A stretch of 64,000 nt of DNA from Naegleria gruberi (lineage: Eukaryota): NCBI GenBank assembly GCA_000004985.1, contig GG738891.1. One strand, 5' to 3'. The notes under the pieces are model-generated. The model was given only the letters and a program-made list of their open reading frames with translations, was not told the origin of the DNA and ran no database searches. The position numbers and the translations under genes were made by a program. Positions 22,501-54,300 of this stretch are shown piece after piece. The number at the start of each line of letters is the position of its first letter. Position 1 is the stretch's first letter.

Positions 22501-22534
22501 TGAAGATTCTATTAATTAAAAAATGTTATAAAAG

Positions 22535-22607
22535 AGAAACAAGATGGATTTGAACCACCGACCTTGGGGGTGAGAGCCCCATATTCTCCCCGCTGAACTA
22601 CTGTTCC
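22535..22607 (-). tRNA. tRNA-Glu (anticodon CUC)
   Basis: The reverse complement reads GGAACAG TA GTTC AGCGGGGA GAAT A TGGGG CTCTCAC CCCCA AGGTC GGTGG TTCAAAT CCATC TTGTTTC T. This gives the cloverleaf with a 7/4/5/5 stem layout, anticodon loop CUCUCAC, T-loop TTCAAAT and a 5-nt variable loop. An oligo-T terminator (CTTTTAT…TTTTTT) follows on the minus strand. The acceptor stem is weak (two G-U pairs, mostly A-U). Confidence 0.55.
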
Positions 22608-23895: not shown

Positions 23896-24080
23896 AATTT
23901 ATCGTAATCTTTCAGATTAAATACAAAATGCTAATGTAATTTATACGAATTTTATGATTGAATCATGTCAATAAACATGTATATTCAAATATTAATGAAT
24001 TTACAAATTTCTGTTAATGACCTAGATCAGAATTTCATCCTCTAAAAAAAGAGGTACAAATTTTTTGTAATGATAGATAA

Positions 24081-24169
24081 CCCGTTGTAGTCCAATGGTT
24101 AGGACATGTGACTCAGTCCAACAAGACTAAAGTTCTCACAAGATCCTGGTTCAACTCCAGGCAATGGGT
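24081..24169 (+). tRNA. Intron-containing tRNA gene (predicted 17-nt intron 24118..24134); the anticodon reads CAG but the isotype is unresolved
   Basis: The fold is CCCGTTG TA GTCC AATGGTTA GGAC A TGTGA CTCAGT[ccaacaagactaaagtt]C TCACA AGAT CCTGG TTCAACT CCAGG CAATGGG T. It has canonical D- and T-arms, the acceptor pairs with one G-U, an intron at the canonical 37/38 position with an anticodon-intron helix (AGTC/GACT), and an oligo-T (T9) about 17 nt downstream. The short 4-nt variable loop is inconsistent with a Leu/Ser class II tRNA, and position 37 would be U. Confidence 0.45.
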
Positions 24170-24368
24170 ATCCAATTATTGCAATCTGTTTCAATTTTTT
24201 TTTAACCTTCAGCAAACCTTAAAAGAACTATGCAATTTTCACCCCAACTCCGACCTATTCCTTTCGAATACTGTATCAAGGTCACAATTTCACTCCACTC
24301 TTTTCCACTTCGCTCCAAATTAAAAAAATCCAAGATTCTAATTTAGCGCCAAAATCAAATCTAAAAAA

Positions 24369-30064: not shown

Positions 30065-32530
30065 TTTTTTTGAGTTTCGAATAATGAGAATTTGCTTTCC
30101 ATTTTAGTGTGGTTACTAATTATGATTATTAATTGAATTGTACGACAATCTTTCCTTATTGTTGATTTATAGCAACTTTAATTTTCAATTGAAAAATATT
30201 TGTAAACTAATTCAAAAAAGTGTTAGAAAGTATCAATTTTAATCTTATATTCTCCTTCTTGACCCATAGTCCAAACAACTGTATAAGGAGCTTCAATTTC
30301 TCCACCAGAACTTTACCCAATTTATAAATTGTTGATTCGTCAATTCTTNNNNNNNNNNNNNNNNNNNNNNNNNNNNNNNNNNNNNNNNNNNNNNNNNNAT
30401 CCATTAGTACTTCCAATTGTTTGCCAACATGTACATCAAATACAGCAAGATAGGCCTTATCTGAAGAACCTCCTGCCCAATAGGATCCTGTGAAACTGGT
30501 ATATCCGAGAGATTTCTTGAATTTGTCGGCTTTTTTGGTTATTGAAATAGGTCAGTAATGAAATAGAAACTTACCGAAATAATTACCATGTCCAAACATT
30601 CTACCATTAGCAGCAGGTCTCAATTGAAGACCATTGATCATGATGGACAAAAAGTTTGCATTTTTAGAGCCATGCCAGAACAATTCTCTCTTTTGATTTC
30701 GTTTCCTTTGGACGAAATTGTCGAATAGTGTTTGAGTTTGATTATTGGTAACTCTGAAAGCTCTGTAAAACAAGTGACTATCTGAGCCCATCATCTTCTT
30801 GAGGAGTTTAATTTCATCTTGTGAAGCATCCTCCACAACAAGTCCATTCTTTTTAAGGAAATCAGGTTGATCAGATTGATCATGTTTTGTAATCTTGACT
30901 TGAGTAGCCATGACATCAAGAATTTCCTGCTGATCATCTAATAGTGAAGCAGCACTATCCTTATTACTCTTATCATTAATCAAATAATCCTGAACTTTCT
31001 TCATCTTTCTTGGAATGACAGCGTACAATTTCAGTAATTTTTCATTGAATGAATTCAGAAAATCCTCATCATTCTTGAAATTCTCATTCACCTTATACAA
31101 TTCATCCAAAATAGATTGAGCAGAGTCCAATTGTTCCTTTGTAACACTTCCAACTCCAACATTGTAATTGCTTACAATGGAAATATTCGAAAAATTATTC
31201 AACTCTGAAATTAAACTCTTCACATCTGGACTGGAATTCTCTAAATAAATATCATCCCCTGCATTGGTCATATCAGATCCCAAATTTGTCATATCTACAT
31301 AGCCTTTCTTCATCTTGGATCGAACTAAACTATCCCATTCACTCAAACTGGCTTTGATTGCAATTCCTGTGGCACCAACTCGACCATAGACAATATGAAT
31401 TTCACCATCCTTTTCAGTCATTTCATAATACTTGTTATTATTCTTGGAGGAGACCATAATTAATTTACAATATCTTCCGGCAGTGTTTGTGAAATTTTTC
31501 ACACTCGAGGAAAAGCTTCGGATTGGATGAATCGTGGAGGAAAAATTATTAACTCTCTTCATCATGCTCATGCTTCTGTTGAGCATTAGTGGTGAAATAA
31601 TCTCCCGATGGGAAGCAATAGATAAAGTACAGTTTAGTTTGCGCATTTTTTTGTGGTTGACTATTGTGAAATTGATCAAGATTTTGATTGGGATTGAAAT
31701 TGATTGAAAGATAACGAAAGAAATGATTTTTAATTATTAGTATTGTAAACTCTGTGAACACTGTTATGTAGAAGTTAAATCTCCCAGTTGATGATAGTAT
31801 TCCACCTCATGTTTTTATTGGCGAGAAATTAGATACATGCTAATTACATTTCTTTTTATTGTACTGAAATTTATTTTTTACTTTCTCATTATAATGAAAC
31901 AAAAGTATGAATCTGATGATGTAACAACATCGGAAAAGATGTAGAAAATGGATAGAACATTGAAGTATTAATAATTAAAGAATTAAAATGTATTTCACAT
32001 TTAAACAAGTTGATGATTTATTTCATATTGTATGTACTCATAATTTTATAAATGATTTATTGAATGAAGCAGGTTGTAGTGAGAAGCAAATGGAGGCATT
32101 TTTTTTTGCCTACTACACTGTAGATTGTCAAGGAAGAAACCACGTGTTCGATTCTTGTCCAAGGACTTTGATTATGCTTGAAAATTAAAAATAAACGTGA
32201 GCGTGGCCAAGTACCTAACAATCATCCATTACTAAAATTAAAAATAATTGTGAGTTGTAATGAAAATCTAAAATAAGAGAATGTGAGTATAAAAACTCAG
32301 TTGCACCTTGTATGAACACCCACAAAAATTAAAAAAGAAATACTGAAAATGTTGAATCAAGATATGAAATACCAACAAGCTGACACTCATGAAATTAATG
32401 ATGACGATGATTGTTTCCTTCGTTATGAAGATATCACCGATAATACTCACAAAGTTACATCCAATAACACTGCCTCAAGTCCCTCGATATTCTCACCACT
32501 CTCAACTATCCTCTCTCAAGAAGAAAGTTA
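30060..32530. repeat. Right arm of the inverted segmental duplication (partner 20530..22500), interrupted by a scaffold gap
   Basis: See the left arm. Gene order differs between the arms. Read on the minus strand, the right arm runs PARP, then the gap, then the small ORF, then the His-rich gene. The left arm runs the small ORF, the 5' of the His-rich gene, the gap, then the PARP 3' exons. Confidence 0.6.
30389..31679 (-). CDS. Poly(ADP-ribose) polymerase-like protein (WGR domain + PARP regulatory/catalytic domains), 3'-truncated by a scaffold gap
   Basis: Exon 1 is 30575..31679 and the 45-nt intron is 30530..30574. Exon 2 runs 30389..30529 into the N run at 30349-30388. The WGR motif is KYYEMTEKDGEIHIVYGRVGATG. 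The catalytic block is ELFWHGSKNANFLSIMINGLQLRPAANGRMFGHGNYF|ADKFKK…AYLAVFDVHVGKQLEV, with the H-G-S…Y…E-type PARP signature partly visible. The missing C-terminus corresponds to the fragment at 22202..22500. Confidence 0.55.
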
Positions 32531-33924: not shown

Positions 33925-34087
33925 TGCCAACATTCCTCTTGGTGGTCGCCTCTCTCGTTTTCACAGCGGATGGCAANNNNNNNNNNNNNNNNNNNNNNNN
34001 NNNNNNNNNNNNNNNNNNNNNNNNNNAATATTACTTTTATATTTTTGTGATACTAGTAACTATATATCTACTATTACACTTAATAGT

Positions 34088-36501: not shown

Positions 36502-37309
36502 TTATTTTTTTGATTTCTGCAAGTTCAGTAAAATTGGATTTTACAATGGAAATTATCGGAAAACAATATATTATTCGAAACATTTCAGTTCTTAAGGCAA
36601 GTTTGATTTTTACAAGAATTTTGAAATAAGAAACAAGAAGAATTGAGGAAACTTTTTGTTACTGTAAATTACCCGCTCATTTTTATTGACGCTTGTTTTG
36701 ACGATTTTATAGTCATGAATGACGCCTTTGTTTATGCTTGTTAAGGTGTCATTGGGACGTTGTTGTGGACGTCAAAATGACGTTTTTTTTCGTCATTTTG
36801 ACGGTGTCAATTTGAGAGTCATTAAGACGTCAAAAAAAGCGTCCTCAATGACGTCTCAAAAAGTGTCTCCAATGACGTTGCAGAATGATTATTAATTTTT
36901 GATAAATTGAAATTTTATTGAACTATTCATAATTCTTACAAGTTGGAAATCCTTCATCTTGAACCATTTCACACTGAGTGAAACTCAATGCTGTGAAAGA
37001 TTCACACCGTGTGAATTAATATTGTAAAAGATTTCACACCATCAAAGATGACAAGGAAATTGACAAGAGTTTCTTATAAAAACGTGAAATAAAAATTTGA
37101 ATTGATATGTCTTGTAAATGAATTGAAATGATGTAATATAATTGATAACTGATACGACTTACTAGTATGTTGAGGTATTTTTTTTGAAAAATAGTTTAAA
37201 CTGGTTGCAAAAATAGAAAGTGTTTATTTTAGAGATGAAGCCAAATATGGAAAGACATTTAATATAATGTAAAGGCCATTTTGTGAATTGGTTTGAAGTG
37301 AAAAGAGCC

Positions 37310-38244
37310 NNNNNNNNNNNNNNNNNNNNNNNNNNNNNNNNNNNNNNNNNNNNNNNNNNNNNNNNNNNNNNNNNNNNNNNNNNNNNNNNNNNNNNNNNNN
37401 NNNNNNNNNNNNNNNNNNNNNNNNNNNNNNNNNNNNNNNNNNNNNNNNNNNNNNNNNNNNNNNNNNNNNNNNNNNNNNNNNNNNNNNNNNNNNNNNNNNN
37501 NNNNNNNNNNNNNNNNNNNNNNNNNNNNNNNNNNNNNNNNNNNNNNNNNNNNNNNNNNNNNNNNNNNNNNNNNNNNNNNNNNNNNNNNNNNNNNNNNNNN
37601 NNNNNNNNNNNNNNNNNNNNNNNNNNNNNNNNNNNNNNNNNNNNNNNNNNNNNNNNNNNNNNNNNNNNNNNNNNNNNNNNNNNNNNNNNNNNNNNNNNNN
37701 NNNNNNNNNNNNNNNNNNNNNNNNNNNNNNNNNNNNNNNNNNNNNNNNNNNNNNNNNNNNNNNNNNNNNNNNNNNNNNNNNNNNNNNNNNNNNNNNNNNN
37801 NNNNNNNNNNNNNNNNNNNNNNNNNNNNNNNNNNNNNNNNNNNNNNNNNNNNNNNNNNNNNNNNNNNNNNNNNNNNNNNNNNNNNNNNNNNNNNNNNNNN
37901 NNNNNNNNNNNNNNNNNNNNNNNNNNNNNNNNNNNNNNNNNNNNNNNNNNNNNNNNNNNNNNNNNNNNNNNNNNNNNNNNNNNNNNNNNNNNNNNNNNNN
38001 NNNNNNNNNNNNNNNNNNNNNNNNNNNNNNNNNNNNNNNNNNNNNNNNNNNNNNNNNNNNNNNNNNNNNNNNNNNNNNNNNNNNNNNNNNNNNNNNNNNN
38101 NNNNNNNNNNNNNNNNNNNNNNNNNNNNNNNNNNNNNNNNNNNNNNNNNNNNNNNNNNNNNNNNNNNNNNNNNNNNNNNNNNNNNNNNNNNNNNNNNNNN
38201 NNNNNNNNNNNNNNNNNNNNNNNNNNNNNNNNNNNNNNNNNNNN
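37310..38244. other. Scaffold gap (935 N). Other gaps are 22087-22137 (51 N), 30349-30388 (40 N) and 33977-34026 (50 N). Single ambiguous bases are at 28118 and 28186.
   Basis: Runs of n in the sequence. ORF-track entries made of X residues (37224-38401) are artefacts of this gap. Confidence 0.95.
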
Positions 38245-38256
38245 CCAACCAATAAG

Positions 38257-38922
38257 ATGTCAACTAGAAAAAACAAATCTAAGGCAGCTGCTCCAAAGAG
38301 GAAGAATCAATCTGATGAAGATGAATCAAGTACTGATACAGATAATGATTCTGAACCAAGCAAGAAAAAACAATTTAAACCATCTTCCAGTAAACAACTA
38401 GTGAAGACAGTGAAGAAGACCATGTCAGTTCATGATTCAGATAGTGATGAATCCACCACTGAAGATTCAGAAAATGGTACTGGTGACTCCACAGAATCTG
38501 TCTATTTTCAAGTTCGTCACGTTAATGGAAAACGGGAATATGTGATTGTTCCAGAGCATGTCGATTACATCTTTGATTTGATAGATAAGGACAAAGCTTT
38601 TCCAGAGTTCATCAATGCCATTATCCAATGTGAAAAGGTATTAACTGACCTCACAAAAAGGTTTGCTCATCTATTTTCAGGGCTTGCATTCAACACTACC
38701 GTAAATGGTATAACTTATTCAATTCCTCCAGACATTATCAAAATGCTTATTGGTAATGTGACTCAAAAACAGTGCTTGGAATTGTTAGCACATCATCACT
38801 TCAAGAAACCTATAGGAGAACTCACAACTGATCAAAGAACAGTATGTAGAAAGTTCTTTGAAGCAAGGGGATGGGATAAAGAAAGTGTTCGGAAGGCAAT
38901 CAATAGTTTGATCAAAGAATAA
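38257..38922 (+). CDS. Hypothetical protein encoded inside the putative TIR element (Ser/Asp/Lys-rich N-terminus, ~130-aa globular C-terminal domain)
   Basis: A 221-aa ORF starting 13 nt after the gap (MSTRKNKSKAAAPKRKNQSDEDESSTDTDNDSEP…VYFQVRHVNGKREYVIVPEHVDYIFDLIDKDKAFPEFINAIIQCEKVL…CRKFFEARGWDKESVRKAINSLIKE). No transposase (DDE/DDD) motifs are seen, and the true N-terminus may lie in the gap. Confidence 0.4.
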   Translation: MSTRKNKSKAAAPKRKNQSDEDESSTDTDNDSEPSKKKQFKPSSSKQLVKTVKKTMSVHDSDSDESTTEDSENGTGDSTESVYFQVRHVNGKREYVIVPEHVDYIFDLIDKDKAFPEFINAIIQCEKVLTDLTKRFAHLFSGLAFNTTVNGITYSIPPDIIKMLIGNVTQKQCLELLAHHHFKKPIGELTTDQRTVCRKFFEARGWDKESVRKAINSLIKE

Positions 38923-39528: not shown

Positions 39529-40851
39529 ATGGGTAAATTCGAAACTCTGAAAACTGAAAGCATTCACTCACTGCAAAGCAAGGGACTATTTAGATTCGTC
39601 ATCATCGTGATGATGAGTTTAATTATGTTTTGTTCGAATATTGTTATCGGAAAACAATATATTATTCGAAACGTGCCATACTTTTCACAACAAACAGAAT
39701 ATTCGTGTGGAGCTACCAGTTTACAGATGGCACTTTCGTATTTTGATGGAAATTTTCATAGACAAATGAAAGAAGAGTCATTGTTAAAGGAAACAGTTTC
39801 GTTTCGAATAATTTCTCAAGAATCAATTGTAGATGTTGCTAGAACTTCCAATCATACAGGAACATGTTCATTAGACGTCATTAGAAGTGCCAGATTCTCC
39901 ACCATTAGTTCAACACCAATTTCTCAATATTATTTACAATATCCGAAACAAGCTCCGATGAACGGATGGTTTGGAATTGAGAATTCCCATAATTTATTGA
40001 ACAAATCTTTGGATTCAATTTACTATTTTGGAGGATTAATGACCATATACTATCCAGAAAGAGGTTCTTATTTGAAATCTGAAAAATGTTCTGAAAAGAA
40101 GGGAGGAGAAGGAAATGTCAAATGTTGGGTAAAAGAAATGATTGAATCCTTTTTGAAATTTGACATTCCTGTCATTTGTTTAATGTTTTATGATTTGAAT
40201 GATAGTGAAGGACATTACCGATTGGCAGTTGGTTACGAAACTAAACTAGACGAAAGTGGAAATGAAATTCCAACACATATTATTATGTGGGATCCTTACA
40301 ATCGAGAAGGAAATCCTCCAATTTCTAATTTTACAATTTCAGAATTTTGTAATTTGTGGAATTATACAGAATTGAGATTTGAGAATACTTGTTATAGACC
40401 TTATTTTGGAGCTGTCATGTATCCATTGGATATTAAGGCAATGGTTAGTAGAGAGGGACATTTGATGGTTGAGTATGGACATCCGAAACACTTGGTTTCG
40501 TCTGATTTTGTTTCGAAACATGTGGAAAAGACACTAGTGATAGACAATGTGGTGGCCAAGATTCGTATTTATCAAACGATTCCTAATCAAGAAGATATTT
40601 TGAAAGAAGTGGAAAGTGTTGATTTGCAAATGAATCCTTCCAGATTGAATTTTGGACAAAATCTTTCATTTTCTTGGAAATTACCATCAAATCTCTTATT
40701 GGAAAAGAATATTCGAATCAAAATTGGAATTTATGGATTAGTTTGTGATAAAACCTTAACTTGGCTCTATGAACCAAACACGGACAAGTTTAGTCAATCG
40801 TACAAATATTGCGATCAAGTTGGAGGAACAATTTTCATTAAAACAGATTAA
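39529..40851 (+). CDS. Secreted/membrane-anchored peptidase C39-like (papain-fold, BtrH/C39_2-type) domain protein
   Basis: A 440-aa ORF with an N-terminal signal-anchor (LFRFVIIVMMSLIMFCSNIVIG). The motif VPYFSQQTEYSCGATSLQMALSYFDG matches the C39-like Q…CG..S signature, and a downstream GHYRLAVGYE supplies the His of the Cys-His dyad. The C-terminal ~150 aa are of unknown function. Confidence 0.5.
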   Translation: MGKFETLKTESIHSLQSKGLFRFVIIVMMSLIMFCSNIVIGKQYIIRNVPYFSQQTEYSCGATSLQMALSYFDGNFHRQMKEESLLKETVSFRIISQESIVDVARTSNHTGTCSLDVIRSARFSTISSTPISQYYLQYPKQAPMNGWFGIENSHNLLNKSLDSIYYFGGLMTIYYPERGSYLKSEKCSEKKGGEGNVKCWVKEMIESFLKFDIPVICLMFYDLNDSEGHYRLAVGYETKLDESGNEIPTHIIMWDPYNREGNPPISNFTISEFCNLWNYTELRFENTCYRPYFGAVMYPLDIKAMVSREGHLMVEYGHPKHLVSSDFVSKHVEKTLVIDNVVAKIRIYQTIPNQEDILKEVESVDLQMNPSRLNFGQNLSFSWKLPSNLLLEKNIRIKIGIYGLVCDKTLTWLYEPNTDKFSQSYKYCDQVGGTIFIKTD

Positions 40852-41168: not shown

Positions 41169-42178
41169 ATGCAACAAGCAATGAAATTCTGGGTTCAAGA
41201 CACCAAACCAGCTTGGTTACCTGAAGGATTCCAAGTGGTAAGTTTTCATATTTCTTTCGAGATCTTTTCACACATTTTAAAGCCAACCGAAATGTTAACT
41301 CACGTTCAACAATTATGTAAAGAAGCCGAAACTGTGTATAATCAAGTCGATTTGGAAGGTAATGGCTTCTTGAGAAGAAGAGAATTCAAGAAGGCAATGA
41401 AGAGATTGGGAATTAACAAGTTTGAAGCAAGGTATGTGTTATCTTGGAGGATTAGTTAAATTTCTGACATTTTGACTTTAGACACATGTTGATCTTTGTT
41501 GACAGAGAACGTCTCAAAGTTGTCAGTATCAAAAACTACGTCAATGCCTACTTATTCATCAAGAGTGGTGGCTTGAATCACATCAATGCTGATTATCAAG
41601 GTCCACTCACTTCCTCAGTTGACCAAAGAACTCACATGAACAATACAGATCCAGGAGAACCATTCAATTTCTCTCAATTAACCAAAAGACAATTATCCAA
41701 CACTACCCAACCACTCTCATTCTTTGCTCAAAACATGTTCCAACCAATTCCTCGTCCAAAAACCATCTACGGTTACACTCAATCCATGAAAGCAGCTAAT
41801 GGAATGTATCTCTGCTCTGAAAATGGAAGAGTCATTGCGAATCGTCCAGTAGTTGGTCCATGGGAGAATTTCTTCTTTCACTCAGATACAGAATGGTCCA
41901 GTGATTGGAATTCTTATTGTGCATTGAGAACTCATTGGAATACTCTGTTGTGTTGTGAGATGGATAATTCAATTATTGATAATAGAACTGTTGCTGGACC
42001 GTGGGAGAGGTTTACTGTGGAGATTCCTCCTGGGGCTGGTGGTGGCATTAGTTGTTACAAGTCGTGGACTGGACATTATTTGACAGCTGATGCTTCTGGA
42101 AATGTTTCGTTCAGTGCAACTAGTATTGGTCCAAATGAAACATGGATTTGTAAAGTACTTAATGTTCTATATCTTTAA
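41169..42178 (+). CDS. EF-hand plus fascin-like beta-trefoil repeat protein; 3 exons
   Basis: Exon 1 is 41169..41237 (…CAAGTG|GTAAGT), intron 1 is 41238..41282 (45 nt) and exon 2 is 41283..41431. Exon 2 contains the EF-hand loop DLEGNGFLRRRE. Intron 2 is 41432..41481 (GTATGT…TTTAG, 50 nt) and exon 3 is 41482..42178, with four repeats of the form …YL.a..nG.V.A.R…GPWE.F… (KNYVNAYLFIKSGGLNHINADYQGPL; NGMYLCSENGRVIANRPVVGPWENFFF; WNTLLCCEMDNSIIDNRTVAGPWERFTVE; TGHYLTADASGNVSFSATSIGPNETWI). Confidence 0.5.
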
Positions 42179-42271: not shown

Positions 42272-43870
42272 ATGTCAAAAGAATGTGCAGTGGCTGATCG
42301 CGAATATTATGAAGAATCTCAACCACCAACAGTGCTAAATAATCAAAATAATGCAAAGAAACTAGACGAAAGCTTTCCACCAGTTGAATATCACGAAAAT
42401 TCATTAAATTCTTTAACACCCGATTACATTTACCTTGACGAGAACAATATCGAAAAGGATTTAATCTGTTCTCTCTGCTACCATCCCTTCATTGATCCAA
42501 TTATGCACTCAACATGTGAAAATATGTTCTGCTCCTCTTGTGTTAAAAAAGTTATTGGAAACAAGTGTCCCCTATGTAAAGGAGAGAATTTCACATCAAA
42601 TTGCTCATCTGTTCCTCGATTCGTCACCAACAAGTTGCTACAATTGAAAGTGGAATGTTCCATGTGTAAGGGAGCAGTTGCAAGAGGTGATTTGAAAGAT
42701 CATCAGGAAAAATATTGTCCTCTTCATGATGCCTATCAACAGGTGACTAAATTGAAGGAGAAACTGGAAGAGGAATGCAAGGAGAAGAAGGATGAGTTGG
42801 GAAGAAAGTTGGAAGAATTATCTGAAAGTTTAAATCTCGAATGGAGTCAAAAGAAGGATGAGTTGACCAGAGAATTTGAATCGAAAGAGGAGGAACTGCA
42901 TGAACGAATTGAATTATTTGAGAATCAAATATTGGCAAGGGAAAAACTTGAGAATGTGAACAAACCTATTCATTTAAATGTTGGTGGGACTATTCTTACA
43001 GTTTCTTTGGGAACATTTATTCATAATGAAAGAGAATCAGATAATTTATTTAAAAAAATGTTCACAGGTGAATATCCATGCTATCAAACACCTTCAAAAC
43101 AGTTTGAAGAGCCTGTGTATTATGTTGATTGTGATCCAATGATTTTCAGATACATCTTAGGATGGTTACAATATGGAAAGAACTCAATTGGGCCAAGTTT
43201 GAGTTTATCTGACATTCTTCTAGCTTGTAAGAAGTTTAGTTTAGATAATCTAGCTGTTAAATTAACCAAATCTGAATACTTTTATGAGATTTCTCAACTA
43301 GAATTCTTCAAAATGAAGAATAGCTCTCCATCCATAATTTTAAACAAATTTGACATGACTAATTTAATGTTAAGAGGTATGGATCTACAAAAATCCTCAA
43401 TTTCACTTTCACTTTTCAGGGGAATGGATTTGAGTGGAGTGAATTTTTCCAATTCTAATTTGAATGGATGTAACTTTAGTGGTTGTATCTTGGATGGAAC
43501 TAATTTTTCAAAATCCAACTTGTCAAATGCAAACATTCAAATAAGTTCATCTTGTAATTTCACTAACTGTGATTTTTCTGGTTGCTTGATTGACAAGTCA
43601 AATTTGAACAATCTTTCATTTTCAGGATCCAGTTTTAAAGAAACCAAGTTTGTGGAATTGTGTAATTTGATTGAGAATGTGACACTGAGCAAGTGCACAA
43701 TTTACAAAGTTTACTTAAATGGAAAGACGTTTAATAGAGTTGACTTTAGTGAAACATCTTTTAAAGATTGCAAGTTTGCAGATTGTACCTTCAAGAACTG
43801 TAACTTTTCAGAGACTCAATGGAAGACAAGCAAAGTAGAGCGATGTAATTTTCTGGAATGCATTCAGTAA
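42272..43870 (+). CDS. RING finger, TRAF-type zinc finger, coiled-coil, BTB/T1 (KCTD-like) and pentapeptide-repeat protein
   Basis: A 532-aa ORF. The C3HC4 RING is CSLCYHPFIDPIMHSTCENMFCSSCVKKVIGNKCPLC and the TRAF-zf-like block is …VECSMCKGAVARGDLKDHQEKYC. A coiled-coil (KLKEKLEEECKEKKDELGRKLEEL…) follows. The BTB/T1 domain is IHLNVGGTILTVSLGTFIHN…YYVDCDPMIFRYILGWLQYG. There are more than 25 pentapeptide repeats (…NFSNSNLNGCNFSGCILDGTNFSKSNLSNANIQ…DFSETSFKDCKFADCTFKNCNFSE…). The arrangement is like KCTD9 (BTB + pentapeptide) with an added N-terminal RING. Confidence 0.6.
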   Translation: MSKECAVADREYYEESQPPTVLNNQNNAKKLDESFPPVEYHENSLNSLTPDYIYLDENNIEKDLICSLCYHPFIDPIMHSTCENMFCSSCVKKVIGNKCPLCKGENFTSNCSSVPRFVTNKLLQLKVECSMCKGAVARGDLKDHQEKYCPLHDAYQQVTKLKEKLEEECKEKKDELGRKLEELSESLNLEWSQKKDELTREFESKEEELHERIELFENQILAREKLENVNKPIHLNVGGTILTVSLGTFIHNERESDNLFKKMFTGEYPCYQTPSKQFEEPVYYVDCDPMIFRYILGWLQYGKNSIGPSLSLSDILLACKKFSLDNLAVKLTKSEYFYEISQLEFFKMKNSSPSIILNKFDMTNLMLRGMDLQKSSISLSLFRGMDLSGVNFSNSNLNGCNFSGCILDGTNFSKSNLSNANIQISSSCNFTNCDFSGCLIDKSNLNNLSFSGSSFKETKFVELCNLIENVTLSKCTIYKVYLNGKTFNRVDFSETSFKDCKFADCTFKNCNFSETQWKTSKVERCNFLECIQ

Positions 43871-44463
43871 ATTGGCAAATGCAACTTCAAACAAGTTAAC
43901 CAATCTGATTGCCAATTTAAAAATTGTGCTCCAGAAGTTGTTGGACAATTCAAATCCATCACCATTACAGACAGCTCTATTTGGAAAGATATTTGTTCTA
44001 GTATTGGATTGCTTGGATTAAAACTTATTTATCGTGGAACAGTTCATGGTTTTAGTGCTTCTTCCTTCCACTCCAATTGCGATAATCAAGGACCAACCTT
44101 GACCATCATTAAATCTGAAAATGATCAAATATTTGGAGGATTTACCATTAATAATTGGAAATCGATAGAATCAAAACAGGAGCAAGATAAAAATGCATTT
44201 CTTTTCAAAATTGAAAATAGAAAATTTAACAGATTCAATATCAAACCAGAGAGGATAGATTTCGCCACATATAGCAGATTCAACAGAATGGAATTTCCAT
44301 TGACACGAATTGTAATGTGAATAATAATTCATATGCTGACTTTGGAAATACTTATCAGCTCCCTAGTGGAATGATTCGTGGAGAGGTCTCGAAAAGATAT
44401 TTGGCAGAAAGTGAGAAATTCAAAGTTGAAGAAATTGAGGTTTTCAAGTTGCTTTTAAATTGA
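43871..44463 (+). CDS. TLDc-domain coding region in the same frame as, and immediately after the TAA of, the upstream RING-BTB-pentapeptide gene; contains an internal -1 frame change
   Basis: The frame is open from the nucleotide after TAA (43868-43870): IGKCNFKQVNQSDCQFKNCAPEVVGQFKSITITDSSIWKDICSSIGLLGLKLIYRGTVHGFSASSFHSNCDNQGPTLTIIKSENDQIFGGFTINNWKS…AFLFKIENRKF…. This continues the pentapeptide pattern and then gives a TLDc N-half. The TLDc C-half (NGISIDTNCNVNNNSYADFGNTYQLPSGMIRGEVSKRYLAESEKFKVEEIEVFKLLLN*, stop 44461-44463) is in the +1 frame starting around 44290. No intron can fit in the ~20-nt switch region. Confidence 0.4.
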
Positions 44464-45325: not shown

Positions 45326-48300
45326 TTATTCAAATACCAATCTCAAATCAATTTGCACTGCAGATGGAATTTCTTCTTCCTTCTTCTTCTTTCTGAATAA
45401 TTTTCTAACAGATTCCGATGAAAAATTGGACAAGACCGATATGAAGGAATGTCTAGAATTTGTTGTTGAGTTTCCATCATCATCATCACCTCCTCCTCTG
45501 CCTACGCCTTTGCCTCCTCTCACAACAGTCACTGCTCCTTCTGAATTATGATCATCACCATCATCATTATCATGACTAATTGTGATGTTGTTGCTATGAT
45601 TTGAATGTGTATCCTCCTCTCCCCTTGTTGAAGGAGTTTCTCTTGGAGTTGGTGGAAGATAAATTGTTTCTCCCTCCACAATAGGATGATCTTCATTATA
45701 TATTATTGTTGTTGTACTCGTATTATTAATAGTATTATTTAAATTAATGATAGGAACAACAGGATGAGGATGAGGATTAAAAGGCTCGATATGAAGATGA
45801 GGTTTTTCATCATCACCATTATCACTTTCTACATCGACATCAATTGCTGTTGTCATTGAAAGTGCTCTTCTTCTTCTATTCCGATGATGACGAAGAATGC
45901 TCGATTTACCACAACAATAACAACACCACCAACAGCAACAACAAAACTGCAGGCAAGGAATGGCTAGACAACATAATTCTCCATAGAAACAATAGTAGGC
46001 ATAGCAACCAATTGTTACAGAGCAACACAAAACCATAGCACCAACCACCACAGCAATGATAATGCCTATTAACATACTCTGATCATCTATATAAATCTTC
46101 TTTTGGACAATGAAGAGATTGAGTGTGGAGGAGACAAGATTGGTCATGTTGAAAGTGACAGAACATTTGCAGGTTGCCATTGTTGAATTGATAATTGTAA
46201 CTATGCAATTTGGATTATCTTCGATGGATAGTGTACTGATTGAGATTGAGGCACATGAATATGATGTATTGACCTCTTTGAAGAACAATTGACCCAAATT
46301 ACTGTCATCTTGAGTAGTAGTAGTATTCTCTAGCAGTGGAATATGGAATTCCAAGTCAATTATGGAAGATGATTTCAATAAGGCAACATCCAAATCACCA
46401 AAACCAAAAGCAATAATTTTAGATTGGAGAGAGGACTTTCTTCTAACTTTCTCAGAGAGAGTTTCTACTTTTGAGGCTAAATAATCACCAATGGAGAATA
46501 TATCATCCACCACAAGGAATGCTTGAAGGAATGGTTTGCTGGAATGTGTGGCCTTAATAGTATTATTTAACTGTACTTTGACACTTGTCAATGTTGAAGG
46601 TTCTATCAACAGCTGATGATTCGAATAGTCGTATAACCACACCAGTTCCATCACTCTTCTATAGAATGCTGCCTTCTTAAAGACTTTTGTTCTTGTCTTT
46701 GGTTGACTTCTGGCTTCTAGATGGGAGGTAAACTTGAGAGTTGTAAATAATTGTTGTGCATTTGAAGCTTGTTTGGTAAAGAATCGTTTCTCAAGGATGA
46801 ATTGGAAGGCAGAATCAATGACAGAGTCCAAACAAAAGTCAACACCCACTGGAAGTTTCAAGCTTTCATCAGCAATCACCTTAACAAGATATTTGACAAG
46901 TTGGGATAGAGCTTCTGATACTGTATTTGTATCAAGATGTTTGAAGTTATACAGAATCGAGTCTACAGTAAATGCAGCTATGGAAATGAGTTGATTATCC
47001 ATCATTATTTCTGTACCATTTGCTAACATTCTCAATAGTTGTAGATTCTTGTTTTGATATTCTGCAAAATCCTTGATGGTATTTTCACAAGCAACCCCAA
47101 CAAAACCTTCCCTACACATACAGGTATCCTTTTTCAAAATTCCACCATTCTTACATGTGAGACTTCTTGTCAATGACCTAGTATTTTCATATATTGAAAT
47201 TGGTTCAATTTTTGTGATGGCTCTATTCAGAAGGGCAGTAGAAGTTCTAGATATGGCTGCTGATTGATAGAGTGATCCCAATAGCGACTCTTCTTTTGCC
47301 TGTTTAATCCATTGTTGAGCTAAAACTTGTACTTGTGAAAAGGTTGAATATGAGCGAGTTTGAATGCTTACATTCATTGATTCTATAGTTGATGCTTGTG
47401 TGGCTGTATTGATTACCTCAAAGAAACATGTAACTGTCTCACCAATGAATGCTGTAGGAAGTTGTTTCGAATAGCCAACATCAATATTATGCATGTAAAT
47501 TTTTACACCAGACCTATCATCAATGAAACCATATCTGTAATCTAAATGATCTTCTTCACTTTTACAATTCATGCAAATGAATTCAAATTCTGTTTCTACT
47601 GCAAAACCATTCAAAGGAGTAATGGTACAATAACACATTGGAGGAGGGGAGGCAACACTGAAACTGTACTGAATCAATGAAGCAACATTTGCATTTGGAT
47701 CATAAGCTGACAGAGTAATAATATTATTGGAGCCAGCATTTAACAAACTTGGATCAATATTAATGTAATCTGAACTTGTGGAACCAACAATAACATTATT
47801 AACAATTACCGTATAATTGGTAATTAAAGATGTTCCAGGAATGAGAGAGGTCTGTAATGTTAGAGTATCACTAACAAGAAAGTATTCCTTCTTTGGGTAA
47901 ACATTAATAATGTTAATTATTGGTGGAATATACGTAAAATGGATAGTAGTCGATTTATGAATACTTCTTCCATCAGATTTAGTAACTTTAAGATCTAGTT
48001 CTAGTGATAGTGGAGGAACGGGGAAAAGAGCTGCATCAATTTTGAAGTTCGTTGACTTTTCTGAGGATAGTACTGAGAGAAACTCTAATAAGAGCTCATT
48101 GACGTTATTGTCCAAGCATGTCCATTCCCACACTTCTGTAGAGTATGCGTTGTAAACCATTTCAGGATCTGTATAATCTACATTAATTATGGTATAATTG
48201 GGTTGTGCATCAAAAGTAATTAAGTTCAAGTATAGATCTGGAGGTTTGGTGATTAAGGTTACAACTGAAACATCTTTGATGTTAGGATTGGATGGATAGT

Positions 48301-51300
48301 AGACAGATACTTGGAATTTATAGATCTGGTAACCAAATGTTTCTAAAGAGACGTAGAGGTCAGAGTATTTATCCATACTGTATCTGATTTTTGGTCCACT
48401 CAATTGAGTCCATTCAATGATTGAATTTTCTGATTTGCATGAAGATTCTGACACTATTTTCTTGATGGTAATAGGAAATTGAGTAGTTACTTTTTCAATA
48501 GTTGTTTGTGGAACATATAATGCTGGAAGAGGGCTTTCTGCTTTTGAAAATATGGAAGAATATACAGTTGAGCTATTTACAATATTTCCCACCACAAGAG
48601 AAACTAAATATTTTCCTTGTGGAAGGGTTGAATCTAGCTTAATTAATGGAGTATTGGGGAAATTGAATGGAATAATTTGGAACACATGGTCTGTCTCATT
48701 GAACAAGGTCCAGTAATAGTCAAGTGGTGTATTATTTGGAGATATACTGAGCGAGCCATCAATGATAATCTCATCACAGGAGCTATAGAATTCTGAGAGT
48801 AGATTTATGGATGCTGTTGGAGCGATAACTTTTTCATTTTCACACCAAATGCCATAATATCCATTCTCACATTGGCATTGATTGTAATCTATGCATACAC
48901 CTCTTCCAGAACAAACATTAGAATCATTCGAAAGTAGAGAATCACATCGTGTCAACTCACAATTCACACCAACATGATTACTGGTGCATGTACAATTATC
49001 AAAGCTTGAACAATTACCACGATTTGAACACACCAAAGGATTGGTATTATTCAGACCGAAACAAGAGTATTGTTCACAACTTTCACCGAAATAGCCGTCA
49101 GAGCATTGGCAAGTATCCAAATCAATGCAATTACCCTTTCCAGAGCAAACAGTTTCTTTTTCACTTGATGAAATGTTGAAACATGTGGTCAACTCACAAT
49201 TAGCTCCATGATACTTTTCTCCACATGTACAATTATTGTAGGATGAGCAAAATCCTCTACCAGAACAAACCTTTGAATCGGCATGCTCTGTTCCATTACA
49301 ATCAAAATAATTACATAGATCTCCATAAGTTCCTAATTGACAAGAGCACTTATTCACATCAATACATTGGCCATTTCCAGAACACACTGTCGAGTTGTCT
49401 TTTTCAATACCAAAGCATGAAAATTCTTTACATTCCACACCAGTATATCCTGAACGACATTTACAATCATCAAAATCAACACATTCACCTCTTCCTGAAC
49501 AAACATTTTGAGTTTCATTGCTCAAAACACCAAAACAACTTGTCACTGAACAATCTAATCCGAAATAATGTGATACACATTCGCACTCATCTGTTTCAGT
49601 ACAACTTCCGTGCCCAGAGCAAACTCTGGAATCAGTTCTATTCATTCCATAACAAGAATAATATTGGCAGTTGTCTCCGTAATATCCTTCAGAACAATTG
49701 CATTGATTGAATCGATAGCAATTTCCTTTTCCAGAGCAAACTTGAGGATTTGATGAAGATACATTGAAACACACATAAGATTCACATTCTTCTCCATGAT
49801 ATCCATGCTCACATGAGCAATTATTAGGAGAAACGCATTGACCATGACCTGAACAAGCCAATGGTTCTGAATGTTGCACATTAAAACATGAGAAATTGTC
49901 ACATTCCTTTCCATAGTAACCAGATACACATGTGCAATTATCAAAATCAACACATTCACCTCTTCCAGAACAAACACTTGAAGAATTGGAAAGTTTGGAG
50001 AAGCAAGTAGTGATGGAACAGTTCAAATCCATATAGTTCTCATCACATTGGCATTGATCCAAGCTGGAACAAGTTCCTCTTCCAGAACAAACATTGGAAT
50101 CTGAAGAATTGAATCCAAAACATGTGTAAAGTTCACAAAATTCACCAAAATATCCATATTCACATTGGCAATTATTAAATGTTTCACATGAACCATGCTT
50201 GGAACAAACTGAGCTATTGGAAGATGAAATTCCATCACAAGTAGTTTCTTGACAGAATGAACCAAAGTAATGTTCTACACATTCGCATGTGTCATGTTGC
50301 TTGCATTCACCACGTCCATTACAAACTCTTGAATCATTACTTAATAATCCCTCACAGGATGTCACTTGACATTTATCACCCCACCAATTGTTTGAGCAGT
50401 GACATGTATCGGGTCCAACACATATTCCATTTCCAGAACATGATATGTTTAAAGTTTTCGATTCATTAAAACATGAAAATTCGTCACAATTTGATCCAAA
50501 ATAATCAATTTCACATTGACATAAATTAAAATCAATGCATTGACCATGTGAGGAACAAACTAGATTGGTTTGATTCGATGGGATGGAAGCACAGGTGGTG
50601 AGTTGACATTCTTCTCCGAAATAGTTTGGTAGACAAAAGCATTCGTCAAGTTTCGAACAATTTCCTCTTCCAGAACAAACACTTTTGGTTTCAGTATGAT
50701 TAATTCCAAAGCAAGCATAATTTTCACAATCCATGCCTGAATAACCATTCTCACATTCGCAAATTTCAGATTTTAAGCATTTTCCGTGTTTGGAACAAAC
50801 TGAACTATTTAAATGCTCAATTCCATTACAATAAAATTCTTCACAATTTGATCCAAAATAACCAGTATTACAAGTGCAATTGTTAAAATCATTACAGTTA
50901 CCATTTTTGGTACAAACAGTCGAGTCATTTGACATTATTCCAAAACAAGAGGTTACGTCACATGCCAATCCAAAGTAATTTTCTTGACATTCACAATTTC
51001 CAAAATCTGAACAATTTCCTCTTCCTGAACAAACTAACACATCATTTTGAGTAATATTGTTACATGTGTAATATTGACATTCATCACCAAAATATCCAAA
51101 TTTACAAGAACAAGTATTGTAATCAATACATTTTCCTTTTCCAGAACAAGCTCGTGAACTGGAAGATATTTCAGCACCACAACTTGTCAATTGACAATAA
51201 TCTCCAAAATAGTGAGCTTGACATTTACAATTATTGTAAGAAGTACAATTTCCTTTTTGGGAACAAACAACAGAAGAATTGGTATTGTTAATGCCATTAC

Positions 51301-54300
51301 AAGTATAATATTGGCATTCTTCTCCGAAATATCCATCATTACAACGACATGAATTGTAATCAATACATTGGCCGTTAGAGGAACAAGCAGTTTCGTTTTG
51401 GTTGGAATATTCGAAACATTCGAATATCTCACAATTGAAGCCCCTGTAATTAAGCGAGCAGTTACATTGATTGTAATCAATGCAATTACCCTTTGATGAG
51501 CAGACTGTTGAATTTAGAGATGATACTGAGCTACATGTGGTCAACTCACAATTTTTTCCAAAATAATTTTCTTCACAAGTACAATTATCGAAACTTGAGC
51601 ATTTTCCTCGAGAAGAGCAAACTTTAAAATCGACATTTGATATTCCATGACATGAAAAATATTGACATTCGTCTCCAGAATATTCATCATTTTCACAAGC
51701 GCAATTATTAAAGGAAGTACATTTGCCGAAACCAGAACAAACTGAAGAGTTATAAGATTCAATTCCATTACAAGTGGTAATTTCACAACTCAATCCAAAA
51801 TAATTCATTTCACATTGACAGGTGTCAAAATCAACACAAGCTCCATAACCAGTACAAACCAAACTGTCATTACTCAATATTCCATTACAACTTGTCACTT
51901 GACACATTGATCCAAACATATTTTCCTTACATTCACAAGTATTTACATCAAGACATTTGCCACGACCAGAACATGACAAGTTGGAGAATTTGGAAATTTC
52001 AAAACAATTGAAATTTTCACATGAATCTCCATAATAATCAGCTGTGCAATTACAAGTATTGTAATCTATACATGTTCCCTTTGATGAGCAAACAGAACTT
52101 TCATTGGATTGAATATTATTACAAGTGGTCAATTCGCAATTATTTCCAAAATAGGAATCAATACAGGTGCAATTATCAAAACTCGAACATTTTCCTTTTG
52201 AAGAACAAACAGATTCCAAAGTATTGTTCACATTGAAACAAGTATAAAATTGACAATCATTTCCAAAGTATCCTTCGTCACATTCGCAATTCTCAAAACT
52301 TTTACAATGACCTCTTGATGAGCAAACTGAGGAATTGTAATGTTCAATGCCATTACAGTTAAATAATTCACAATTGGTTCCATAATATCCTTCATTGCAT
52401 TCGCAGAAATCAAAATCTGTGCAATTTCCTTTTCCAGAACAAACATTAGTTTCGTTTGAAAGTGTTGAATTACAACTGGTCAATTGACATTCATCTCCTA
52501 AATAATTAAGGAAACATGAACAATTATTTGTTGAATAGCATTCTCCACGTGAATGACAAACAGATGAGTTGATATTCAAAATGTCAAAACATTTGAATTC
52601 AGAACAATCAGAACCAAATGAATTTTCAAAACATTGACAGGTGTCAAATTGTGAACAAACTCCATTTCCAGAACATGTCAAATCTGTTACATTGGATGGA
52701 ACTCCAAAACATACAGTAACTTGGCAGAATTGACCAAAATAATTTTCAGTGCAATTACAACTATCTGTTTCAATACAATTACCACGTCCTGAACAAACAA
52801 TTGATTCATTACTCAATGTTCCATTACATTTGTATAATGAACAGTCAGCTCCGTAAGCATCTGGTTGACATTGACAGGAATTCACATCAGAACATTTGCC
52901 TCTGCCAGAACAAACTAATTGTGATTGATTTGAAGGAATGGAAAAACAATCAGTCACTTGACAATAATCTCCATAATATCCATCTCTGCATGAACATTGA
53001 TTTGGTGATAGACATTCTCCTCTTCCAGAACAAGTAATTGTTTCATTACTAAAAATGGAATTACATATTGTAACTGAACAATTCAGTCCAAAGTAATTAA
53101 AATCACATTCACACAAATCTGTTTCTGAACAAATACCATGTCCAGAACAAACCAAAGATTCACTATTATTCAAACCAAAGCAAGTGTGGAATTGACAATT
53201 CTCTCCATAATATCCCTCAGAACAATTACAATGATTGTAAGAAGAACAATCACCTTTTCCAGAACAAACACTGTTATTGGTCATATCAAGTCCAAAACAA
53301 GATGTTCTCTCACAAAATTCACCATAGTATCCATCCGTACAATTACAAATATCTTTTGCAACACAATTTCCATTGGAATTACAAACACTTGTCAAATTAC
53401 CAAAAGTTCCATTACATTTGGATATGGAACAATCCTCACCAAATGCATCTGGAAGACAAATACATGAATCTATATCTGAACAATTGCCTCTTCCTGAACA
53501 AACTGTAGAGTCCAAGTTGAGTGTGCCAAGACATGAGAATTGAGAACAAGTTATTCCTGAATAACCTGGTTTACAAGTACAATTATTGAAAGAAGAACAT
53601 AAACCGTGAGAGGAGCATACTTGAGTGAAATTGGAAACAATATTTTCACAAGTCGTGAGCTGGCAGAATGGACCAAAATAATTTGCCGTGCAATTACAGA
53701 TATCTGGATTAATACACGAGCCACTTCCGCTACAAACAAGGGAATCATTACTTGGAATACCATTGCACAATGTAAATTCACAATTTGTTCCATAAATTTG
53801 AGAATTATTGCAATGACAATTGTTAACATCTGAACAAACGCCCCTTGAGGAACAAACTGATGAGGAATTTCTGTTAAATCCAAAGCAATCATATTCTTGA
53901 CAGTCAGATCCATAGTATCCTTCCTCACATTCACAATTATTGTATTGAGTACAATTACCGCGACCTGAACAAACAATTGTGGAATTTGAAACGATATTTG
54001 AACACGTTGTGAACTGACACCATTCACCAAAGTAATGTTTGGAACAGTTGCAAACTTTGAAATCGGTACAAATACCATTCTTTGAACAGACTAATGAATC
54101 ATTTGCAGTAATATTGTTACAATATGGAATTTCACAATTCAATCCAGTATAACCATATTTGGAATCACAATTACAATTATTATATGAATCACAACTTCCA
54201 TGTCTACTACAAACACGTTGATCATTAGATCCAAAACCATAACATGTTGTAAAATCACAAAAAGTTCCAGCATAATTCAAGTCACATTCACAAACGTCCA

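What the first reader, a model, noticed from the sequence alone, without database searches (positions are those of the whole stretch)
42272..44463. RING-TRAF-BTB-pentapeptide gene reads through an in-frame TAA into a TLDc domain and then changes frame
The nucleotide after the stop codon TAA (43868-43870) continues in the same frame with more pentapeptide-repeat-like sequence (IGKCNFKQVNQSDCQFKNC…) and then a clear TLDc N-half (LIYRGTVHGFSASSFHSNCDNQGPTLTIIKSENDQIFGGF…AFLFKIEN). The TLDc C-half (…SYADFGNTYQLPSG…EVFKLLLN*) lies downstream in the +1 frame, and the ~20-nt switch region has no room for an intron. So the locus encodes a BTB/pentapeptide + TLDc architecture interrupted by one stop and one frameshift. 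This could be a recent pseudogene, two sequencing errors, or, less likely, programmed read-through/frameshifting.
Basis: seen in the sequence. Interest (0 to 1): 0.55.

Follow-up and report, generated by a model that had tools for sequence, protein, structure and literature searches.

The report
Broken TLDc tail of Naegleria gene
One copy of a Naegleria gruberi multi-domain gene family has been cut short by a stop codon and a one-base deletion, which strand the remains of its last domain after the gene; this is ordinary recent gene decay, or possibly a draft-assembly error, and not a recoding signal.

Summary
The window is Naegleria gruberi. ORF 42272-43870 is the annotated 532-aa protein NAEGRDRAFT_71501. 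Past its TAA the same frame stays open for 149 codons and encodes a linker and the N-part of a TLDc domain. The C-part lies in the -1 frame (not +1), after a one-base deletion at 44288-44289. The repaired tail scores 81.8 bits on Pfam TLD, as high as intact paralogs.

Seven relatives carry RING-BTB-pentapeptide-TLDc in one protein. These are three N. gruberi paralogs, one N. fowleri, one N. lovaniensis and two metagenomic proteins. The two whose loci could be fetched are single uninterrupted ORFs. Paralogs have Ser, Leu, Gln or Ile at the TAA column, and TCA, TTA and CAA are each one substitution from TAA.

I found no in-frame ATG, no slippery heptamer, no leaky stop context and no credible intron. 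TAA ends 19 of 29 long ORFs in the window.

Most likely this is a recent truncation leaving a decaying TLDc relic (about 0.72). Two assembly errors remain possible (about 0.18). Recoding or intronisation is unlikely (about 0.03-0.05).

Interest is low.

The parts
42272..43870 (+). Annotated ORF NAEGRDRAFT_71501 (XP_002673308.1, D2VR88), 532 aa, ending at the TAA
   Evidence: ORF list. It is 100% identical to P0001.
42449..42583 (+). RING-like zinc finger (aa 60-104). The canonical His ligand position is Asn (C-x-N-x2-C) in the whole family.
   Evidence: Pfam RING models match but fall below their cutoffs. The family profile matches the LNX2 and TRIM21 RING regions in PDB at E 2.4e-13 and 6.8e-11. 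The ligand pattern is read from the alignment.
42647..42721 (+). Second zinc finger (aa 126-150, C-x2-C-x11-H-x4-C), weakly TRAF-like
   Evidence: zf-TRAF E 0.017, 16.3 bits against cutoff 27. Many of its alignment columns are invariant in the family.
42968..43177 (+). BTB_2 (T1/KCTD-type) domain core, aa 233-302
   Evidence: PF02214, 22.5 bits against cutoff 21.4. The family profile matches KCTD1 and KCTD15 BTB structures.
43337..43852 (+). Pentapeptide-repeat region (about aa 356-527)
   Evidence: PF00805 at 75.8 bits, plus PF13599 and PF13576. The family profile matches pentapeptide-repeat structures.
43868..43870 (+). Premature in-frame TAA, followed by A (strong terminator context)
   Evidence: Paralogs have S, L, Q or I at this column; TCA, TTA and CAA are each one substitution from TAA. 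TAA ends 19 of 29 long ORFs in the window, 8 of them as TAA-A.
43871..44014 (+). Relic of the last pentapeptide-like turns and the linker, frame 1, with no ATG
   Evidence: It is colinear with paralog coding sequence. GC is 0.33-0.35, like coding sequence.
44015..44287 (+). TLDc relic, N-terminal part, same frame as the upstream ORF
   Evidence: TLD/PF07534 match on the repaired translation and tblastn.
44288..44289 (+). Frameshift site: two bases left of a codon (1-nt deletion) between AGA (Arg) and GGA (Gly)
   Evidence: Frames compared, with the paralog alignment 'FG..DI.I'.
44290..44463 (+). TLDc relic, C-terminal part, in the -1 frame, ending at the ancestral stop TGA 44461-44463
   Evidence: tblastn second segments, and the TLD profile matched to position 169 of 170.

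Best explanation
This is one member of a Naegleria family of RING-like / zinc-finger / coiled-coil / BTB(KCTD-type) / pentapeptide / TLDc proteins. It has recently lost its C-terminal TLDc domain. A single-base substitution turned a sense codon into TAA at 43868. A one-base deletion at 44288-44289 broke the now untranslated TLDc coding sequence. The order of the two events is unknown.

What the ribosome makes, if the gene is still expressed, is the 532-aa RING-BTB-pentapeptide protein. It has a KCTD9-like core but lacks the module that in other TLDc proteins binds the V-ATPase. Positions 43871-44463 are a decaying coding relic that now lies in the 3' UTR or intergenic DNA.

Shown: the lesions, the homology across them, the single-gene architecture of relatives, and the absence of recoding or splicing signals.

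Inferred: that the lesions are real rather than assembly errors, that they are recent, and that the truncated protein may still work.
For: 1. The family architecture is a single gene. P0002, P0003 and P0005 (N. gruberi), P0004 (N. fowleri), P0006 (N. lovaniensis) and metagenomic P0007 and P0008 all carry pentapeptide plus TLD in one protein. The N. lovaniensis and N. fowleri genes are single uninterrupted ORFs of 2790 and 3300 nt.
2. Paralog alignments cross the TAA in frame and resume in the -1 frame after 44287.
3. The TAA column holds S, L, Q or I in paralogs; Ser, Leu and Gln each have a codon one substitution from TAA.
4. TAA is the normal stop here, ending 19 of 29 long ORFs. The adjacent 6221-codon ORF contains no stop codon of any kind, so the genetic code is standard.
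5. The lesions are recent. The repaired TLDc scores 81.8 bits, against 78.4 and 81.2 for intact paralogs. There is no further stop in 197 codons. In a neutral simulation P(no new stop) is 0.46 at 2% divergence, 0.15 at 5% and 0.03 at 10%.
6. There is a hint of relaxed constraint. The locus keeps 76% of family-conserved columns in TLDc against 90% in RING plus BTB, Fisher p = 0.05.
7. The locus lies in a gap-free stretch, 38245-64000, whose 18.6-kb neighbouring ORF is intact. This argues against a locally high error rate.
8. Other N. gruberi members are also annotated without TLDc: P0009 at 426 aa and P0063 at 277 aa. BTB-pentapeptide proteins without TLDc exist elsewhere, for example P0011 and P0021 and KCTD9 (PMC6019787).
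Against: - No independent reads, transcripts or second N. gruberi assembly could be consulted, so sequencing errors are not excluded.
- The window has assembly gaps and single Ns between 22 and 38 kb, so it is draft quality.
- At profile level the TLDc relic shows no measurable decay. Two artefacts would give the same result.
- The constraint difference is only borderline (p = 0.05), and pre-stop versus post-stop overall is not significant (p = 0.30).
- Whether the truncated protein is functional or the whole gene is dead cannot be decided. Two lesions both falling in the last 27% of the gene has p about 0.07 under uniform decay (my estimate).
Confidence: 0.72

Rival explanations
1. Both lesions are errors of the draft assembly, or belong to one null allele of a heterozygous strain. 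The real gene would then be an intact protein of about 730 aa: RING-BTB-pentapeptide-TLDc.
For: - The repaired TLDc scores as well as intact paralogs, 81.8 against 78.4 and 81.2 bits, and there are no further lesions in 197 codons.
- The scaffold is draft quality. It has N-runs at 22087-22137, 30349-30398, 33977-34026 and 37310-38244, single Ns at 28118 and 28186, and 98-100% identical inverted repeats next to gaps.
- The two sites are only 420 nt apart, so a single poor read could carry both.
- N. gruberi is reported to be heterozygous (PMC9928731, citing Fritz-Laylin 2010).
Against: - The locus lies about 5.6 kb inside a gap-free 25.7-kb stretch.
- At least 21.6 kb of neighbouring coding sequence, including one 18.6-kb ORF, has no frameshift or stop. 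That bounds the disruptive indel error rate below about 1.4e-4 per nt (my estimate).
- A substitution that makes a stop and an indel in the same 420 nt is improbable.
- The deletion is not in a long homopolymer (AGA-AT-GGA).
- No protein at 90% identity or more with the intact architecture exists in the 5.8-billion-protein collection; the P0001 cluster has one member.
Confidence: 0.18
2. Programmed recoding: the ribosome reads through the TAA and then shifts -1 near 44288, producing some full-length TLDc-bearing protein.
For: Only that both downstream frames are open and the relic is well preserved. The fold downstream of the shift site is marginally stable, z = -1.74 with 12 of 200 shuffles as good.
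Against: - The stop context is UAA-A. Established knowledge rates this an efficient terminator, and 8 of the 29 long ORFs in the window end TAA-A, as many as TAA-T.
- No known read-through motif is present.
- The sequence after the stop has no significant structure, z = +0.42.
- There is no X XXY YYZ heptamer in frame within the 44275-44317 overlap.
- All seven full-length relatives encode the domain in one frame with a sense codon at the stop column, so neither signal is conserved.
- Two independent rare events would compound to a negligible yield.
- No suppressor tRNA lies in the window.
- I found no paper reporting read-through of ordinary genes in Naegleria; five papers hold both terms and none was opened.
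Confidence: 0.02
3. The TAA is spliced out. An in-frame 108-nt intron at 43867-43974 (GTAAAT...ACAG), ancestral or newly intronised after the nonsense mutation, joins the pentapeptide region to the TLDc.
For: - A GT-AG pair with length 3n exists. The G of CAG plus TAA forms GTAAAT, and 108 nt is within the species' intron size range. The N. gruberi mean is 203 bp (PMC8296547), and local candidates run 41-199 nt.
Against: - Likely introns in this window start GTAAGT or GTATGT and have GC 0.14-0.25. This candidate starts GTAAAT and has GC 0.35, like coding sequence.
- The segment is colinear with paralog coding sequence.
- The family members whose loci I could read are intronless.
- Splicing would not repair the frameshift. 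The only GT-AG pairs that do (44312 or 44317 to 44358-44396) delete conserved TLDc motifs and keep out-of-frame residues.
Confidence: 0.03
4. The TLDc part is a separate downstream gene with its own start.
For: None beyond the annotated gene ending at 43870.
Against: - Frame 1 has no ATG from 43871 to 44287. The first Met in the -1 frame tail leaves only about 30 aa.
- The TLDc itself is split by the frameshift.
- There is no AT-rich intergenic spacer after 43870. GC there is 0.33, against 0.20-0.26 in true spacers.
- No database protein corresponds to it.
Confidence: 0.01

Closest known systems
Intact N. gruberi paralogs NAEGRDRAFT_48585 (P0003, 710 aa), NAEGRDRAFT_80657 (P0005, 685 aa) and NAEGRDRAFT_82104 (P0002, 927 aa), with N. 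fowleri FDP41_001763 and N. lovaniensis C9374_011707
   Same: They have the same domain order: RING-like, zinc finger, coiled coil, BTB_2, pentapeptide, TLDc. Identity to the repaired locus is 38-45% overall, rising to 54-62% in the RING and BTB regions of the three N. gruberi paralogs. The fetched loci are single-exon genes.
   Different: In this locus the TLDc is cut off by a TAA and split by a 1-nt deletion. The pentapeptide region is also shorter and more diverged, at about 30% identity. The N. fowleri and N. lovaniensis genes are not syntenic with this window, so they are not positional orthologs.
Human KCTD9 (BTB plus pentapeptide-repeat protein)
   Same: The truncated 532-aa product has the same core: a T1/KCTD-type BTB domain followed by pentapeptide repeats (PMC6019787, PMC9658877).
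   Different: KCTD9 has no RING or zinc-finger N-terminus and never had a TLDc. I did not test for specific homology beyond the shared domains.
TLDc proteins (OXR1, NCOA7, TBC1D24, mEAK-7/TLDC1), which interact with the V-ATPase
   Same: The relic is a bona fide TLDc by sequence, E 6.9e-23. The family profile matches the TLDc regions of mEAK-7, Skywalker and zebrafish OXR2 in PDB. TLDc domains bind the V-ATPase (PMC8608904, PMC11094088).
   Different: Here the domain is not translatable as one chain. V-ATPase binding in this family is untested.
Ordinary duplicated-gene pseudogenes or truncated paralogs in expanded families
   Same: There are disabling lesions (one nonsense, one frameshift) in sequence that is otherwise clearly homologous to functional paralogs.
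   Different: Only the 3' quarter is affected and the 5' 532 codons are intact. This may therefore be a domain-loss allele rather than a dead gene.

Membership tests
TLDc domain (Pfam PF07534) | Sequence match above the Pfam gathering score | tested here: met
   81.8 bits against cutoff 24.5, profile 28-169 of 170, on the frame-repaired translation. Intact paralogs score 78.4 and 81.2.
TLDc domain (Pfam PF07534) | Encoded as one continuous translatable chain | tested here: not met
   It lies after a TAA, has no ATG, and is split between frame 1 and the -1 frame at 44288-44289.
TLDc domain (Pfam PF07534) | Binds the V-ATPase (function reported for TLDc proteins, PMC8608904) | not testable with these tools
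   This needs biochemistry.
Pentapeptide repeat (PF00805, PF13599) | Match above the gathering score | tested here: met
   75.8 bits against 20.2, and 72.3 against 38. PDB profile hits to pentapeptide-repeat structures.
BTB_2 / T1-KCTD type BTB (PF02214) | Match above the gathering score | tested here: met
   22.5 bits against 21.4, just above the cutoff. The family profile matches KCTD1 and KCTD15 BTB structures at E 1e-6 to 1e-5.
RING finger | Pfam RING model above the gathering score, with the canonical C3HC4 ligand pattern | tested here: inconclusive
   All RING models fall below their cutoffs; the best is zf-RING_6 at 27.8 against 35. The family profile matches the LNX2 RING-ZnF region at E 2.4e-13 and the TRIM21 RING at 6.8e-11. 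The canonical His position is Asn in all members (C-x-N-x2-C). A conserved His lies three residues before Cys3, so eight potential ligands remain.
TRAF-type zinc finger (PF02176) | Match above the gathering score | tested here: not met
   E 0.017, 16.3 bits against cutoff 27, covering 25 residues only. A C-x2-C-x11-H-x4-C motif is present and conserved. The resemblance is real but membership is not shown.
Programmed -1 ribosomal frameshift | Slippery heptamer X XXY YYZ in the zero frame inside the frame overlap | tested here: not met
   None in 44275-44317. The only heptamer nearby (AAATTTA at 44222) is out of frame and upstream of the overlap.
Programmed -1 ribosomal frameshift | Stable downstream stimulatory structure | tested here: inconclusive
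   z = -1.74, and 12 of 200 shuffles fold as well.
Programmed -1 ribosomal frameshift | Frame change conserved in relatives | tested here: not met
   All seven full-length relatives encode the TLDc in one frame.
Programmed stop-codon read-through | Leaky stop context or a conserved stop with a conserved extension | tested here: not met
   The context is UAA-A, one of the two commonest normal termination contexts in the window (8 of 29 long ORFs, tied with TAA-T). Relatives have a sense codon at this column. There is no structure after the stop, z = +0.42.
Spliceosomal intron covering the TAA | GT-AG boundaries, local donor consensus, AT-rich non-coding composition | tested here: not met
   A GT-AG pair with length 3n exists at 43867-43974. 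Its donor is GTAAAT against the local GTAAGT or GTATGT. Its GC is 0.35 against 0.14-0.25 for likely introns. The segment is homologous to paralog coding sequence.
Pseudogene / decaying gene fragment | Clear homology to functional genes combined with disabling lesions | tested here: met
Pseudogene / decaying gene fragment | Relaxed selective constraint on the disabled part | tested here: inconclusive
   76% of conserved columns are kept against 90%, p = 0.05, but the profile score is undiminished.
Pseudogene / decaying gene fragment | Lesions are real in the organism's DNA and the part is not translated | not testable with these tools
   No N. gruberi reads, transcripts or second assembly were reachable.

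The most novel reading that the evidence does not exclude
The lesions are real but are bypassed. One route is nonsense-triggered 'intronisation' of 43867-43974, where the new TAA completes a GTAAAT donor. The other is TAA read-through. Either would be combined with low-level -1 slippage at 44288, so that some TLDc-bearing protein is still made.
Probability: 0.03. Interest if true: 0.6.

Novelty: new member of a known kind. Interest (0 to 1): 0.1.

Why it matters
It matters little beyond annotation. NAEGRDRAFT_71501 should be flagged as a C-terminally truncated family member with an unannotated TLDc relic at 43871-44463, or corrected to about 730 aa if the lesions prove to be assembly errors.

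It is a clean, datable example of domain loss by a nonsense mutation in a lineage-specific RING-BTB-pentapeptide-TLDc family. It also suggests that other short N. gruberi models of the family (P0009, P0063) deserve the same check.

Only if RNA or ribosome data showed bypass of the lesions would it become interesting.

Tried and rejected
- **Locating the gene elsewhere.** Exact-protein look-ups for the 532-aa product and for N. gruberi paralogs P0003, P0009 and P0063 found nothing on record. Paralog loci, and the possibly similar truncated members, could not be inspected.
- **Searching for a closer ortholog.** The metagenome scan returned only distant pentapeptide proteins at 23-25% identity. 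A second protein search with the RING-BTB part found only N. gruberi paralogs and one metagenomic relative. The N. fowleri and N. lovaniensis members are not syntenic with this window, so no true ortholog test was possible.
- **Introns.** I enumerated every GT-AG pair that removes the TAA or repairs the frameshift. I rejected them on donor sequence, composition, homology to coding sequence and loss of conserved motifs.
- **Recoding signals.** I checked for slippery heptamers, RNA structure and suppressor tRNAs and found nothing supportive.
- **Genetic-code change (TAA as a sense codon).** Rejected, because a 6221-codon ORF has no in-frame stop and TAA ends most long ORFs.
- **Separate TLDc gene.** Rejected, because there is no start codon.
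- **Literature.** I found no paper on this family. The search for Naegleria plus stop-codon read-through returned five papers (four listed), none opened. The 2010 genome paper is not held.
Full report
**Source and annotation.** The window is Naegleria gruberi. ORF 42272-43870 is 100% identical to a 532-aa 'predicted protein [Naegleria gruberi]'. Its accessions are NAEGRDRAFT_71501, XP_002673308.1 and D2VR88. GC is about 33%, matching the published genome figure (PMC8296547).

**Checking the observation.** It holds.
- The ATG at 42272 opens a frame that reaches TAA at 43868-43870. The same frame then stays open to TGA at 44318-44320.
- The pre-stop protein carries Pentapeptide (75.8 bits) and BTB_2 (22.5 bits against cutoff 21.4). 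RING matches fall below their cutoffs.
- The post-stop translation, joined to frame 3 after about 44288, matches Pfam TLD at E 6.9e-23 over profile positions 28-169 of 170.
- tblastn with four relatives (P0002, P0003, P0005, P0007) gives single alignments that cross the TAA, for example P0003 at 42398-44266. A second segment follows in another frame, starting at 44287-44329 and ending at 44445-44448.

Three corrections apply.
- The C-half lies in frame 3, which is the -1 frame and corresponds to a one-base deletion. It is not the +1 frame.
- 'TRAF' is only a marginal zf-TRAF hit, E 0.017 and 16.3 bits against cutoff 27.
- The 'more pentapeptide' stretch right after the stop is weak alone. The 34-aa piece has no hit, and reading through adds only 0.6 bit.

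**Placing the lesions.**
- In frame 1 the codons TTC AAC AGA (F-N-R, 44279-44287) align with the family motif 'F-G-x'.
- In frame 3 the codons GGA ATT TCC ATT GAC (G-I-S-I-D, from 44290) align with 'D-I-x-I'.
- Two bases, 44288-44289, lie between them, so one base is missing.
- At the TAA column the relatives have Ser (three), Leu (two), Gln and Ile. TCA, TTA and CAA are each one substitution from TAA.

**The architecture elsewhere.**
- Three N. gruberi paralogs (710, 685 and 927 aa), one N. fowleri protein (1099 aa), one N. lovaniensis protein (929 aa) and two metagenomic proteins all carry the TLDc at the end of the same protein.
- The N. lovaniensis and N. fowleri genes are uninterrupted ORFs of 2790 and 3300 nt.
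- None is a positional ortholog, because their neighbours differ from those in this window. The closest relative is only 41-45% identical. A metagenome scan found nothing closer.

**Rival: separate gene.** Frame 1 has no ATG between 43871 and 44287. The -1 tail has its first Met about 30 residues from the end. The TLDc cannot be a gene of its own.

**Rival: changed genetic code.** The neighbouring 6221-codon ORF contains no stop codon, and TAA ends 19 of 29 long ORFs. The code is standard.

**Rival: read-through.** The context is UAA-A. This is an efficient terminator by established knowledge, and 8 of 29 long ORFs in the window end TAA-A, as many as TAA-T. The following 120 nt fold no better than shuffles, z = +0.42.

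**Rival: -1 frameshifting.** No in-frame X XXY YYZ heptamer lies in the overlap. The downstream fold is unremarkable, z = -1.74. No relative shares the frame change.

**Rival: introns.**
- Likely introns in this window start GTAAGT or GTATGT, are 41-199 nt long and have GC 0.14-0.25.
- One candidate uses the stop's own G-TAA as donor and keeps the whole TLDc: 43867-43974, 108 nt, GTAAAT...ACAG (a 135-nt alternative ends at 44001). Its GC is 0.35, and it is colinear with paralog coding sequence.
- Nothing sensible repairs the frameshift.

**Real lesions or errors?**
- For errors:
  - The repaired TLDc scores as well as intact paralogs, 81.8 against 78.4 and 81.2 bits.
  - The scaffold has gaps and single Ns between 22 and 38 kb.
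  - The two sites are 420 nt apart.
- Against errors:
  - The locus sits about 5.6 kb inside a gap-free 25.7-kb stretch.
  - At least 21.6 kb of adjoining coding sequence, including the 18.6-kb ORF, has no disruptive error.
  - Two different kinds of error in one gene are unlikely.
  - The deletion is not in a long homopolymer.
  - No intact version exists in the protein collection.
- On timing:
  - The locus keeps 76% of family-conserved columns in the TLDc against 90% in RING plus BTB, p = 0.05. This hints at relaxed constraint.
  - A neutral-decay simulation limits the time since inactivation. The chance of no new stop in 197 codons is 0.46 at 2% divergence, 0.15 at 5% and 0.03 at 10%.

**Conclusion.**
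- The most likely reading (about 0.72) is a recent nonsense truncation plus a one-base deletion in the orphaned tail.
- The translatable product is a 532-aa RING-like / zinc-finger / coiled-coil / BTB / pentapeptide protein. It shares its BTB-pentapeptide core with KCTD9 (PMC6019787). It lacks the TLDc module, which in other proteins contacts the V-ATPase (PMC8608904).
- Whether the truncated protein still functions is open. Its RING and BTB regions keep about 90% of conserved positions. Two further N. gruberi members are also annotated without a TLDc.
- Assembly error, or a heterozygous null allele, is the main rival at about 0.18. Recoding or intronisation together are about 0.05.

This is an ordinary event of a known kind, so interest is low.

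Noticed in passing
window 45326-63991 (- strand): A single uninterrupted 6221-codon ORF encodes hundreds of EGF-like Cys repeats. Its C-terminal 999 residues (45326-48325) match the REJ domain (E 1.2e-13) and include a Cys-rich hydrophobic stretch that looks like a membrane anchor. It converges on the gene studied here.
   Followed up: partly
window 20700-22322 and 29781-32325: Four inverted-repeat pairs are 98-100% identical: 21519-22086 / 29781-30348, 22138-22322 / 30409-30593, 20700-20910 / 32115-32325 and 20962-21160 / 31916-32114. They have inconsistent offsets and abut N-gaps. This is either a recent inverted duplication or a scaffolding artefact.
   Followed up: partly
window 22087-22137, 30349-30398, 33977-34026, 37310-38244; single Ns at 28118 and 28186: Assembly gaps and ambiguous bases show that this scaffold is draft quality between 22 and 38 kb. 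The ORFs listed at 37224-38401 lie across the 935-N gap and are not real.
   Followed up: no
window 41169-41459 and 41486-42178 (+ strand): An EF-hand-like ORF and a fascin/FRG1-like beta-trefoil ORF (repeated GPWE.F motif) are separated by a likely 44-50-nt intron (41432 or 41438 to 41481). They are probably one two-exon gene ending 93 nt upstream of the gene studied here.
   Followed up: partly
window 39529-40851 (+ strand): A 440-aa ORF has an N-terminal hydrophobic segment and a Peptidase_C39-like match (E 1.4e-8). This family is mostly bacterial.
   Followed up: no
window 22534-22607 (-) and 24080-24170 (+): tRNA-Glu(CTC) and tRNA-Leu(CAG) genes. Neither is a suppressor.
   Followed up: no
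family alignment A1, query residues 82-87 (window 42515-42532): In every family member the RING's canonical His ligand (C-x-H-x2-C) is Asn (C-x-N-x2-C). A conserved His sits three residues before the third Cys. This suggests a variant zinc-ligand arrangement in a Naegleria-specific RING.
   Followed up: no
proteins P0009 (NAEGRDRAFT_76763, 426 aa) and P0063 (277 aa), N. gruberi, outside the window: Two more family members are annotated without a TLDc. P0063 ends inside the BTB domain. They may be further decayed copies or incomplete gene models. Their DNA could not be fetched.
   Followed up: partly
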